DNA of 31,026 bases from a virus (lineage: Duplodnaviria > Heunggongvirae > Uroviricota > Caudoviricetes), in the IMG/VR virus record IMGVR_UViG_2579778802_000007, positions 1 through 31,026 of that record; one strand, 5' to 3'. Made by a program: the position numbers and the translations under genes. Of this stretch, positions 1,241-1,513 are shown in pieces (position 1 is the first letter of the stretch; every line of letters begins with the position of its first letter). The notes under the pieces are model-generated. The model saw only the letters and a program-made list of their open reading frames with translations. It was not told the DNA's origin and searched no databases.

Positions 1241-1270
1241 TTGACAGTTTTTGTTCTCCGGGGCTATATT
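1241..1270 (+). promoter_or_regulatory. Sigma70-like promoter candidate (TTGACA - 18 bp - TATATT)
   Basis: Consensus -35 TTGACA at 1241-1246 and -10 TATATT at 1265-1270; sits upstream of the Rha-like gene with a ~240-nt leader. Confidence 0.35.
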
Positions 1271-1332
1271 CCTCACACAACCGCAAAATCGGTTGTCGGG
1301 ATTGGCGTCTCGGATAACATCACAACGCATAG

Positions 1333-1353
1333 CCGCGTTTGCGGTTTTTTTTT
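1333..1353 (+). terminator. Weak hairpin (CCGC-GTTT-GCGG) followed by T9; possible attenuator or terminator of a short leader transcript
   Basis: Short stem plus a nine-T run read from the sequence, lying between the promoter candidate and the rha start. Confidence 0.3.
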
Positions 1354-1452
1354 GCGTTAAGCATTGCCACATTCGCATTATGGTGGGGCGTGCAGGGGCG
1401 GAGAAATCCGCGCCGGGTTTTGTGATGACCGGTTACGCCAACCCTGTACGTC

Positions 1453-1502
1453 TCACCACCTCCCTGATTGGCGTCAGAGGTGGTGATCATCCAATTAATT
1501 GG
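1453..1502 (+). promoter_or_regulatory. 10-bp perfect inverted repeat TCACCACCTC...GAGGTGGTGA (14-nt spacer) followed by 12-bp palindrome CCAATTAATTGG overlapping the rha Shine-Dalgarno
   Basis: Both read directly from the sequence. The first arm resembles the anti-SD end of 16S rRNA and the second arm is SD-like. Confidence 0.35.
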
Positions 1503-1513
1503 AGTCATCACAT

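What the first reader, a model, noticed from the sequence alone, without database searches (positions are those of the whole stretch)
1241..1513. Structured leader upstream of the Rha-like regulator
A consensus-like promoter (TTGACA - 18 bp - TATATT) is followed by a 5' hairpin (ACAACCG/CGGTTGT), then a weak stem with a T9 run, then a perfect 10-bp inverted repeat whose arms resemble anti-SD and SD sequences, and finally a 12-bp palindrome (CCAATTAATTGG) overlapping the real SD. Together these suggest attenuation or translational control of rha, or a short leader RNA terminated at the T9 tract.
Basis: seen in the sequence. Interest (0 to 1): 0.4.

Follow-up and report, generated by a model that had tools for sequence, protein, structure and literature searches.

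The report
Antisense-RNA switch guarding a prophage antirepressor
The "structured leader" is a complete copy of a well-known phage immunity module: a promoter makes a short decoy RNA (IsrK-like) and a processed antisense RNA (C4-like), and the antisense RNA pairs with the start region of the Rha-family, antirepressor-like gene; it is real and intact, but ordinary.

Summary
Rfam places a C4 antisense RNA at 1376-1463 (75.9 bits, cut-off 45) and an IsrK sRNA at 1277-1351 (72.2 bits, cut-off 50). The C4 junction (a', ACGCCAA, 1435-1441) and its second loop (b', 1420-1429) each match two sites. Upstream, a1 (1302-1308) and b1 (1318-1325) lie inside the IsrK-like RNA. Downstream, a2 (1468-1474) and b2 (1504-1512) lie in the mRNA, with b2 between the rha SD and the ATG. 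Sixteen comparators (P1, P4, Gifsy-1, Stx phages, SfV, APSE-2 and others) have the same layout. Their specificities differ (eight a-types), and the pairings covary strongly. The "5' hairpin" and the "T9 stem" are the first hairpin and the terminator of the IsrK-like RNA. The left arm of the 10-bp inverted repeat is the 3' strand of the C4 basal stem, and a2 sits in the loop; that helix is conserved. The 12-bp palindrome is at chance frequency and conserved only as a small SD-containing hairpin in the nearest relative. Verdict: a member of the P1 immI / P4 CI / Gifsy-1 isrK-orf45-anrP system. Low novelty.

The parts
1241..1270 (+). Sigma-70 promoter (-35 TTGACA 1241-1246, 18-bp spacer, -10 TATATT 1265-1270). 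Predicted start at A1277.
   Evidence: 11/12 match. The Rfam isrK model starts at 1277. Equivalent promoters sit at the same distance in 16 comparators. The start site is inferred by homology to Gifsy-1 isrK, not mapped here.
1277..1353 (+). IsrK-like short RNA, equivalent to the a1/b1 region of P1 and seqA of P4. Hairpin 1 is 1277-1296. Hairpin 2 is 1297-1312. The terminator stem is 1331-1346 with U9 at 1345-1353.
   Evidence: Rfam RF01394, 72.2 bits (cut-off 50), and RF03163 c4-a1b1, 43.8 bits (cut-off 46.7). Covariation in hairpin 1. Terminator scan.
1302..1308 (+). a1 site TTGGCGT, in the loop of hairpin 2. Complementary to a' of the C4-like RNA.
   Evidence: duplex -15.5 kcal/mol; none of 500 shuffled targets did as well. 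The homologous Gifsy-1 pairs G28:C162 and G31:C159 were verified by compensatory mutation (PMC4825925, numbering mapped).
1318..1325 (+). b1 site CATCACAA, in the single-stranded stretch before the terminator. Complementary to b'.
   Evidence: all 8 pairs show changes on both sides across homologues.
1376..1463 (+). C4/CI-type antisense RNA. The mature species is probably 1382-1460 by analogy with the 77-nt P1 C4. Basal stem 1381-1397 with 1442-1458, hairpin A 1398-1411, hairpin B 1412-1433.
   Evidence: Rfam RF01695, 75.9 bits (cut-off 45). The MFE fold equals the family structure, -47.4 kcal/mol, z = -5.2. The fold is 95.3% paired, and 21 pairs show compensatory changes. The processing sites are inferred from the P1 annotation.
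1420..1429 (+). b' TTGTGATGAC, the loop of hairpin B. Recognition element for b1 and b2.
1435..1441 (+). a' ACGCCAA, the single-stranded junction. Recognition element for a1 and a2.
1453..1486 (+). The left arm 1453-1462 is the 3' strand of the C4 basal stem plus 4 nt. The loop 1463-1476 holds a2. The right arm is 1477-1486. This helix competes with the C4 basal stem.
   Evidence: Across 17 homologues it is 88% paired, and 7 of 10 pairs show double changes. Its function is inferred.
1468..1474 (+). a2 target site TTGGCGT. It starts 8 nt after the predicted C4 3' end (P1: 4 nt).
   Evidence: P1 annotates the equivalent a2 site.
1479..1511 (+). Predicted target hairpin in the mRNA. The right arm 1479-1486 pairs with 1504-1511 (b2). 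The apical mini-hairpin 1490-1503 is made by the palindrome and contains the SD.
   Evidence: MFE folds. An analogous local hairpin is predicted in all 17 homologues, and the nearest relative has UUCCA...UGGAA in the apical position. Prediction only.
1501..1504 (+). Shine-Dalgarno GGAG of rha, 9 nt before the ATG.
   Evidence: Sequence.
1504..1512 (+). b2 target site GTCATCACA, lying between the SD and the ATG of rha.
   Evidence: A 9-nt perfect complement to b'. Duplex -13.0 kcal/mol, P = 0.004 against shuffled targets. Cognate complements average 8.5 nt against 4.2 nt for non-cognate. The only such site in the 31-kb window.
1380..1517 (+). Leader ORF of 45 codons, the homologue of Gifsy-1 orf45, annotated in RefSeq as 'ash family protein'. 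It runs through the C4 RNA, and its stop TGA overlaps the rha ATG (ATGA).
   Evidence: same length and same overlap as Gifsy-1. (RefSeq CDS). (Pfam Phage_ASH). Its peptide sequence is not conserved, and the frame is closed early in 6 of 17 homologues.
1514..2071 (+). Rha-family regulator (185 aa), the regulated cargo and a probable antirepressor.
   Evidence: Pfam Phage_pRha 3.3e-27. TIGR02681. Its C-terminal 65 aa resemble Gifsy-1 AnrP (E = 9e-6). Cargo in the homologues has Rha, ORF6N, Bro-N, 'Derepression' or icd/ant domains.

Best explanation
Window 1241-1516 is a P1-immI-type RNA immunity module placed in front of an Rha-family, antirepressor-like gene.

Proposed mechanism:
1. A constitutive sigma-70 promoter starts transcription at about 1277.
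2. Most transcripts stop at the U9 terminator. This gives a roughly 75-nt IsrK-like RNA that carries sites a1 and b1.
3. Read-through transcripts contain a tRNA-acceptor-like C4 RNA. It is cut out to give about 79 nt (1382-1460). In P1 and P4 the 5' cut is made by RNase P.
4. The mature C4-like RNA uses its junction (a') and its hairpin-B loop (b') to pair with a2 (1468-1474) and b2 (1504-1512) on read-through mRNA.
5. b2 fills the space between the SD and the AUG, so the 30S subunit cannot bind and Rha is not made. In P1 the loss of translation also causes Rho-dependent termination.
6. The IsrK-like RNA carries the same two sites. It therefore competes for C4, or for the C4 segment of the uncut transcript, and acts as the derepressing arm. 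This is what was shown for IsrK in Gifsy-1.

What is shown here: the family assignments, the folds, the four complementarities and their covariation, and the position of b2 on the RBS.

What is inferred by homology: the transcription start, termination efficiency, processing, the direction of regulation, and the antirepressor role of Rha.
For: - Rfam C4 at 75.9 bits and isrK at 72.2 bits, both above their gathering cut-offs.
- The C4 MFE fold is identical to the family consensus, with z = -5.2.
- All 16 fetched comparators, including P1, P4 and Gifsy-1, have isrK and C4 in tandem.
- In each comparator, a 7-nt a' and an 8-11-nt b' find perfect complements at the same relative positions upstream and downstream. 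There are eight different a specificities and about fifteen different b sequences.
- Covariation counts: the cis fold is 95.3% paired with 21 pairs changed on both sides. a1:a' plus b1:b' is 90% paired with 14 of 15 pairs changed on both sides. a2:a' is 89.5% paired. In all three, sliding the register lowers pairing to 34-52%.
- Cognate b':b2 complements average 8.5 nt against 4.2 nt for non-cognate pairs.
- In Gifsy-1, compensatory mutants G28A/C162U and G31A/C159U hit exactly the a1:a' pairs, and IsrK in trans raises anrP translation about 100-fold (PMC4825925).
- IsrK and the C4 homologue STnc1160 are highly expressed in Gifsy-1 lysogens (PMC7067206).
- The a+b site pair occurs only at these two places in the 31-kb window.
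- The cargo genes of the homologues are antirepressor-type proteins.
Against: - There are no expression, processing or reporter data for this locus.
- The two experimental precedents differ in emphasis. In P1 and P4 the C4/CI RNA is a trans repressor. In Gifsy-1 the emphasis is on a cis refolding activated by IsrK, and constitutive STnc1160 did not antagonise IsrK. The net logic here is therefore not settled.
- b2 lies after the SD here, rather than on or just before it as in most homologues.
- Thermodynamic cofolding does not open the stable C4 fold. The cofold MFE is no better than the separate monomers, because the program cannot model loop-loop kissing.
- The module sits next to decayed tail-fibre pseudogenes, so the prophage may be defective.
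- A 94%-identical allele has point changes in a', in b2 and in the leader-ORF ATG.
Confidence: 0.85

Rival explanations
1. The Gifsy-1 logic dominates. The read-through RNA folds in cis, with a1/b1 paired to a'/b', into a translationally silent form. Free IsrK-like RNA displaces that pairing and exposes the AUG and RBS of the 45-codon leader ORF at 1380. Ribosomes that finish this ORF at TGA 1515-1517 then re-initiate at the overlapping rha ATG. In this view the C4 segment serves mainly as a structural part of the mRNA, not as a diffusible repressor.
For: - The window has the same 45-codon ORF, with the same AUG-to-AUG distance and the same ATGA overlap as Gifsy-1 orf45.
- The published data show that orf45 translation is needed for anrP expression and that IsrK activates in trans.
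- The ORF stays open up to or past the cargo start in 11 of 17 homologues.
Against: - The leader ORF is closed after 8-33 codons in 6 of 17 homologues, including the closest relative, Yersinia phage vB_YpM_41, and P1.
- The peptide sequence and frame are not conserved (window against Gifsy-1; also stated in PMC12197685).
- rha has its own good SD.
- The a2 and b2 sites covary with a' and b' just as strongly as a1 and b1 do. This model does not require that, whereas the trans-repressor model does.
- The MFE of the full leader keeps the C4 fold rather than the a1:a' form.
Confidence: 0.35
2. One reading: a purely cis-acting leader. An anti-SD/SD hairpin (1453-1462 with 1477-1486) and a palindrome over the SD attenuate transcription or mask the RBS, with no trans-acting RNA.
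For: - The inverted repeat is real and improbable by chance.
- Its helix is conserved with covariation.
- In MFE folds, the right arm and the palindrome hairpin sequester the SD and b2.
- In some homologues (cdtI, P88) the helix is followed by a T-run, like a terminator.
Against: - The left arm belongs to the far more stable 17-bp C4 basal stem.
- The GAGG of the right arm occurs in only this one of the 17 sequences.
- No U-tract follows the helix in this window, and one search reports no terminator there.
- No riboswitch or leader family hits at E <= 1.
- The model leaves the a'/b' covariation with four distant sites unexplained.
Confidence: 0.07
3. The functional product of 1380-1517 (or 1242-1517) is a small 'Ash family' protein, as RefSeq annotates, and the conservation seen is protein conservation.
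For: - RefSeq CDS 'ash family protein'.
- Pfam Phage_ASH hit at 28.9-34.6 bits against a cut-off of 26.
Against: - The Pfam profile spans the isrK terminator, the C4 RNA and the a2/b2 region in SfV orf37, and it matches the historical P4 'cI protein' ORF. In P4 the immunity factor is the CI RNA (PMC4825925 discussion).
- Homologous nucleotides are read in different frames in the window and in Gifsy-1. Gifsy-1 orf45 gives no Phage_ASH hit.
- The frame contains stops in 6 of 17 homologues.
- Substitutions follow base-pair covariation.
- NCBIfam has no model that hits this ORF.
Confidence: 0.05
4. The module is an inert remnant at the end of a decaying prophage and no longer regulates anything.
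For: - Adjacent tail-fibre-assembly, DUF4376 and recombinase pseudogenes.
- One allele carries mutations in a', b2, the -10 spacing and the leader ATG.
Against: - In the window, all four target sites are perfect complements, the promoter is an 11/12 match, rha is intact, and the C4 fold is intact.
- 417 complete E. coli genomes carry the module at >=99% identity.
- The rest of the window holds an apparently complete head, tail and immI gene set.
Confidence: 0.12

Closest known systems
Gifsy-1 (Salmonella) isrK - orf45 (STnc1160) - anrP locus (Hershko-Shalev et al. 2016, PMC4825925)
   Same: - Promoter block CCGGGGCTATATTCC.
- A three-hairpin IsrK RNA with a U-tract terminator.
- The same a specificity (TTGGCGT paired with ACGCCAA).
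- A C4-type RNA about 25 nt downstream.
- A 45-codon leader ORF starting at the C4 AUG and ending in an ATGA overlap with the cargo gene.
- A cargo C-terminal domain related to that of AnrP.

   Different: - The b specificity differs (GTGATGA against GGTGAT).
- The C4 RNA is 88 nt rather than 84 nt.
- The cargo N-domain is Phage_pRha rather than ORF6N.
- b2 lies after the SD rather than just before it.
- The module lies at the prophage end next to the ompW att site, not beside the Q antiterminator.
Phage P1/P7 immI operon: a1 b1 - c4 - a2 b2 - icd - ant1/2 (Citron & Schuster 1990, 1992; P1 GenBank annotation)
   Same: - The order and spacing of a1, b1, C4, a2 and b2.
- A 7-nt a site recognised by the C4 junction, and an 8-9-nt b site recognised by the hairpin loop.
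- b2 lies on the RBS of the first downstream gene.
- A GGUGGGG...CCACC acceptor-like stem.
- A helix between the C4 3' strand and the sequence after a2.

   Different: - P1 has no long leader ORF through C4; it stops after 14 codons.
- P1 has a separate icd gene before ant.
- The P1 promoter overlaps a C1 operator; no operator was identified here.
- The upstream P1 a1/b1 region was placed here by hand and was not scanned with Rfam. It has a terminator-like stem followed by a weaker, interrupted T tract.
Satellite phage P4 immunity region: seqA - CI RNA (seqB) - seqC
   Same: Both Rfam isrK and Rfam C4 hit P4. The a and b sites lie at the same relative positions, and the C4-3'-strand/right-arm helix shows compensatory changes.
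   Different: - P4 has a 107-nt spacer between seqA and CI.
- In P4 the CI RNA acts mainly by causing premature transcription termination of the replication operon. The predicted mode here is RBS occlusion of an antirepressor gene.
P22 immI (mnt-arc-ant with sar antisense RNA)
   Same: It has the same biological role, small-RNA control of antirepressor translation. A copy is present elsewhere in this window (sar at 14611-14678).
   Different: sar is a true cis-antisense transcript from the opposite strand. It is not a processed same-strand RNA with bipartite targets, and it has no sequence or structural relation to this module.

Membership tests
C4 antisense RNA (Rfam RF01695; P1 C4 / P4 CI) | Covariance-model score at or above the curated gathering cut-off | tested here: met
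   75.9 bits against a cut-off of 45, full-length match 1-87/87.
C4 antisense RNA (Rfam RF01695; P1 C4 / P4 CI) | Long acceptor-like basal stem enclosing two hairpins and a single-stranded 3' junction | tested here: met
   The MFE fold equals the consensus, z = -5.2. The structure is 95.3% paired, with 21 covarying pairs across 17 sequences.
C4 antisense RNA (Rfam RF01695; P1 C4 / P4 CI) | Two recognition elements (a', b') complementary to a2 and b2 just downstream, with b2 at the RBS of the next gene | tested here: met
   a2 at 1468-1474 and b2 at 1504-1512 between the SD and the ATG. Covariation and the cognate against non-cognate test.
C4 antisense RNA (Rfam RF01695; P1 C4 / P4 CI) | A second copy of the targets (a1, b1) upstream on the same transcript | tested here: met
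   a1 at 1302-1308 and b1 at 1318-1325.
C4 antisense RNA (Rfam RF01695; P1 C4 / P4 CI) | Excised from a longer same-strand precursor, with the 5' end made by RNase P | not testable with these tools
   Only the conserved UUAU|GGUGGGG...CCACC context can be seen. An RNase P ts strain or in vitro cleavage is needed.
C4 antisense RNA (Rfam RF01695; P1 C4 / P4 CI) | Controls an antirepressor or derepression gene | tested here: inconclusive
   The cargo is a Phage_pRha protein. Cargo in the homologues is of antirepressor type. Antirepressor activity of this protein has not been shown.
IsrK sRNA (Rfam RF01394) | Covariance-model score at or above the gathering cut-off; three hairpins, the last a Rho-independent terminator | tested here: met
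   72.2 bits against a cut-off of 50. Terminator found. Hairpin 1 covaries.
IsrK sRNA (Rfam RF01394) | Own promoter; partial read-through into an orf45-antirepressor mRNA coupled by overlapping stop and start codons | tested here: met
   Promoter at 11/12. A 45-codon ORF with an ATGA overlap. Read-through itself cannot be tested here.
IsrK sRNA (Rfam RF01394) | Hfq binding and trans-activation of the long isoform | not testable with these tools
   Known only for Gifsy-1.
c4-a1b1 motif (Rfam RF03163) | Score at or above the gathering cut-off | tested here: not met
   43.8 bits against a cut-off of 46.7. The same nucleotides are covered by the isrK hit, and the a1 and b1 sites are present, so the shortfall is marginal.
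Classical transcription attenuator / riboswitch leader | Match to a known leader or riboswitch family, or a terminator/antiterminator pair directly upstream of the gene | tested here: not met
   No such Rfam hit at E <= 1 in 800-2300. The only terminator in the leader (1331-1346) ends the IsrK-like RNA 160 nt before the gene.
Phage_ASH protein family (Pfam PF10554) | A conserved protein-coding ORF | tested here: inconclusive
   The HMM hits. However, the profile tracks the RNA module, the frame is not conserved, and it is closed in 6 of 17 homologues.

The most novel reading that the evidence does not exclude
The module could be a three-state RNA switch rather than a simple repressor-target pair. 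The right arm (1477-1486) can pair either with the 3' strand of the C4 basal stem, or with b2 and the SD (1504-1511, with the palindrome hairpin on top).

Folding and processing of C4 would then lock the rha RBS in cis. Meanwhile the IsrK-like RNA and the mature C4 would compete in trans for the same a and b elements. One transcript would supply the repressor, its decoy and a cis lock, and the termination/read-through ratio at the U9 tract would set a bistable decision. This would also reconcile the P1/P4 'repressor' literature with the Gifsy-1 'activator' literature.

A side consequence is that Pfam Phage_ASH and the RefSeq 'ash family protein' names would be translations of this RNA module.
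Probability: 0.2. Interest if true: 0.4.

Novelty: new member of a known kind. Interest (0 to 1): 0.2.

Why it matters
For annotation, about 8% of complete E. coli genomes (450 of 5426) carry this module. RefSeq labels it only as an 'ash family protein' CDS. The functional products are almost certainly two small RNAs that gate an antirepressor-like protein, and so probably prophage induction.

For biology it adds nothing fundamentally new, because the system is textbook in P1 and P4 and has been dissected in Gifsy-1. It is a clean example with an Rha-type cargo, and b2 lies between the SD and the AUG. The prophage also carries a P22-type sar/ant module, so two different RNA-gated antirepressors coexist in one element.

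Tried and rejected
- Riboswitch or attenuator reading: an Rfam E-value scan of 800-2300 gave only C4, isrK and c4-a1b1.
- Right arm GAGGTGGTGA as the SD of a small ORF: the GAGG is not conserved. The GTG-initiated 18-codon frame behind it was not pursued.
- Palindrome as an operator or conserved element: it is at chance frequency. It is absent from 15 comparators and kept only as a different small hairpin in the nearest relative.
- Whole-molecule cofolding of C4 with its targets: the results were uninformative, because the MFE programs keep the monomers folded and cannot model kissing complexes. Local duplex energies and covariation were used instead.
- Conservation of the leader ORF: mixed result, so it is not used as a defining part.
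- Reading the primary P1 and P4 papers (PMC312442, PMC196329, PMC176756): not held in the library. Those mechanisms rest on the P1 GenBank annotation, on secondary descriptions and on my own knowledge.
- Search for other targets of a' and b' in the window: none found.
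Full report
**Observation**

The region was read directly and each listed feature was checked.
- The promoter is TTGACA (1241-1246), an 18-bp spacer, then TATATT (1265-1270).
- The hairpin is ACAACCG/CGGTTGT (1277-1296).
- The stem 1331-1346 is followed by T9 (1345-1353).
- The perfect 10-bp inverted repeat is 1453-1462 with 1477-1486.
- The palindrome CCAATTAATTGG is at 1491-1502 and overlaps the SD GGAG (1501-1504), ahead of the ATG at 1514.

The inverted repeat is unlikely by chance, P about 0.005 for this region. The palindrome is not: there are seven 12-bp palindromes in the window against 8.3 expected, and P is about 0.07 locally.

An Rfam scan of 800-2300 (repeated over the whole window) gave three overlapping or adjacent hits on the + strand.
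- isrK (RF01394) at 1277-1351, 72.2 bits against a cut-off of 50.
- c4-a1b1 (RF03163) at 1264-1316, 43.8 bits, just under its 46.7 cut-off.
- C4 antisense RNA (RF01695) at 1376-1463, 75.9 bits against a cut-off of 45.

Folded alone, the 88-nt C4 segment adopts exactly the family consensus: a 17-bp basal stem, two hairpins and an 8-nt single-stranded junction. The energy is -47.4 kcal/mol, with z = -5.2 against shuffles.

**Anatomy**

The repeat finder and a complementarity scan show two recognition elements in the C4-like RNA.
- The junction ACGCCAA (a', 1435-1441) is complementary to TTGGCGT at 1302-1308 (a1). a1 lies in the loop of the second IsrK hairpin.
- a' is also complementary to TTGGCGT at 1468-1474 (a2), which starts 8 nt past the predicted C4 3' end.
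- The hairpin-B loop TTGTGATGAC (b', 1420-1429) is complementary to CATCACAA at 1318-1325 (b1).
- b' is also complementary to GTCATCACA at 1504-1512 (b2).

b2 fills the interval between the SD and the rha start codon. These a+b site pairs occur nowhere else in the 31-kb window. Local duplex energies run from -10.3 to -15.5 kcal/mol. Between 0 and 3.6% of shuffled targets did as well.

This is the arrangement annotated in the P1 GenBank record: a1, b1, c4, a2, b2, then the RBS of icd.

**Comparative test**

A BLASTN search of the phage collection found about 290 records with 66-84% identity. Thirteen diverse records were fetched, together with P1, P4 and Gifsy-1.

The fifteen loci scanned with Rfam (all except P1) each have isrK followed by C4 above the gathering score. 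For P1, the GenBank record annotates the elements directly.

In every locus, a 7-nt a' and an 8-11-nt b' have perfect complements at the same relative positions. The exceptions are a degenerate a1 in APSE-2 and one mismatch in the a2 of SfV. The sequences themselves differ: there are eight a specificities (ACGCCAA, ATGCGAA, GTGCTAA, TTTCCAC, GTCTCAA, GTGGAAA, TTCTCAC, CTGTCAA) and about fifteen different b sequences.

On a 17-sequence alignment (A1):

| Structure | Cells paired | Pairs changed on both sides |
|---|---|---|
| Cis fold of IsrK and C4 | 95.3% | 21 |
| a1:a' plus b1:b' | 90.0% | 14 of 15 |
| a2:a' | 89.5% | 6 of 7 |

No shuffle reached the observed paired fraction or covariation score for these three, and sliding the register lowers pairing to 34-52%. 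The b2 sites do not align column-wise, so a cognate against non-cognate matrix was used for them. The longest b':b2 complement averages 8.5 nt for cognate pairs and 4.2 nt for non-cognate pairs.

**The 10-bp inverted repeat**

Its left arm is the 3' strand of the C4 basal stem plus four nucleotides. Its loop contains a2. The helix is 88% paired across the 17 sequences, with compensatory changes in P4, P1, and the Actinobacillus and APSE-2 phages. It is therefore a real conserved helix that competes with the C4 basal stem.

It is not an anti-SD/SD pair, because the GAGG of the right arm occurs only in the window.

In MFE predictions of the full leader, the much more stable C4 fold wins. The right arm then pairs with b2 (1479-1486 with 1504-1511). 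The palindrome forms a small apical hairpin that contains the SD. A local hairpin with the right arm as its 5' strand, and with a 3' strand that abuts or overlaps b2 or the SD, is predicted in all 17 homologues.

The nearest relative, Yersinia phage vB_YpM_41, has a different apical hairpin (UUCCA...UGGAA) in place of the palindrome. The palindrome is best read as the lineage-specific tip of this target hairpin, not as an element in its own right.

**Leader ORF**

An ORF starts at the conserved AUG of the C4 5' strand (1380). It runs 45 codons and ends at TGA 1515-1517, overlapping the rha ATG. Gifsy-1 orf45 has the same length and the same overlap. RefSeq calls this ORF 'ash family protein', and Pfam Phage_ASH hits it.

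Several results argue that the conservation is RNA conservation.
- The Pfam profile follows the whole RNA module in SfV orf37, and it matches the historical P4 'cI protein' ORF.
- Homologous nucleotides are read in different frames in the window and in Gifsy-1.
- The frame is closed after 8-33 codons in 6 of 17 homologues.

Translation of the ORF may still matter for coupling, as shown for Gifsy-1.

**Cargo**

The downstream protein has a Phage_pRha domain. Its C-terminal segment resembles that of Gifsy-1 AnrP. In the homologues the cargo carries Rha, ORF6N, Bro-N or 'Derepression' domains, or it is icd followed by ant. These are typical antirepressor or derepression proteins.

**Mechanism**

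The best-supported reading has four steps.
1. The promoter drives an IsrK-like RNA that terminates at U9.
2. Read-through transcripts yield a processed C4-like RNA.
3. C4 binds a2 and b2 and blocks initiation at rha.
4. The IsrK-like RNA carries decoy copies of both sites and counteracts C4, or refolds the uncut transcript.

The pairing scheme is shown here by covariation. In Gifsy-1 it was shown by compensatory mutants that fall on the a1:a' pairs: G28/C162 and G31/C159 (with numbering checked). Transcription start, termination, processing and the direction of regulation are inferred from P1, P4 and Gifsy-1. RNase P processing and Rho-dependent polarity in P1 come from my own knowledge of Citron & Schuster and later work. 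Those papers were not available.

**Context**

In other E. coli genomes the module follows trpA or yciE and a 3' fragment of ompW, which places it at the right end of a prophage inserted in ompW. In this window and in strain EC15, the exo-xis-int end of another prophage lies upstream instead, which suggests tandem prophages. Among 5426 complete E. coli genomes, 450 carry at least 80% of 1241-1516, and 417 records match at 99% identity or more.

**Verdict**

The finding is real, but it belongs to a well-described system. Novelty is low: a new member of a known kind. The residual interest lies in the three-partner right arm and in the mis-annotation of the module as a protein.

Noticed in passing
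window 13708-15388: A complete P22-type immI module sits inside the tail-gene block. It comprises Mnt-like (15098-15388, +), Arc-like (14873-15061, -), P22 Ant-like (13708-14676, -; P22_AR_N plus P22_AR_C) and the sar antisense RNA (Rfam RF00262, 14611-14678, +, 95.6 bits). The same prophage therefore carries two unrelated RNA-gated modules, each upstream of an antirepressor-type gene.
   Followed up: partly
window 1242-1517; also L016 8168-8584, L010 1132-1968: Pfam Phage_ASH (PF10554) and the RefSeq name 'ash family protein' correspond to a translation of the isrK-terminator, C4 and a2/b2 RNA module. The profile hits the historical P4 'cI protein' ORF and the N-terminal extension of SfV orf37 ('immunity region'). 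It does not hit Gifsy-1 orf45, which reads the same nucleotides in another frame. The family probably reflects RNA conservation, not protein conservation.
   Followed up: partly
window 1264-1351: Rfam isrK (RF01394, no clan) and c4-a1b1 (RF03163, clan CL00128) match the same nucleotides here and in Gifsy-1, Stx2 II, phi419 and an Actinobacillus phage. They describe the same element but are not linked in a clan.
   Followed up: partly
window 885-1240: This is an att-site region. GTTTTGCAGAG occurs three times in tandem at 891-925 and once more (1 mismatch) at 1168-1178, against 0.64 expected. These repeats flank a 3' fragment of ompW (about 930-1055, - strand) and are probably integrase arm-type sites. 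With exo-xis-int upstream and a prophage right end downstream, the window appears to span the junction of two tandem prophages at ompW.
   Followed up: partly
window 3575-3773 (-): There is an Rfam IS009 hit (RF02111, 225 bits) inside the tail-fibre-assembly ORF 3532-4116. A second, truncated tfa copy lies at 2483-2752, and a SAM-methyltransferase gene (2809-3477) lies between them. RefSeq shows a recombinase pseudogene nearby. This may be the remnant of an invertible tail-fibre segment.
   Followed up: no
L008, L010, L011, L012 (cdtI, SfV, mEp460, ST64B), about 1132-2280: In these phages one frame stays open from the end of the upstream gene, through the isrK and C4 region, and into the Rha-type cargo. 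Annotators have called a single 280-385-aa 'antirepressor' or 'immunity region' protein. The true start is probably the ATG after b2 and the SD.
   Followed up: no
L019 596-876 (E. coli MFDS1006657, 94% identical allele): This allele has a' ACGCCAA changed to ACGTCAA (still pairs through G-U), b2 GTCATCACA changed to GTAATCACA, the leader-ORF ATG changed to TTG, and a 2-bp deletion before the -10. It may be a decaying or re-specified variant of the module.
   Followed up: no
L002 1735-3065 (Yersinia phage vB_YpM_41): In the closest phage relative of the module (84% identity), the first gene after b2 is a 63-aa ORF that overlaps a 380-aa gene. This is a P1 icd/ant-like two-gene arrangement rather than a single Rha gene.
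   Followed up: no
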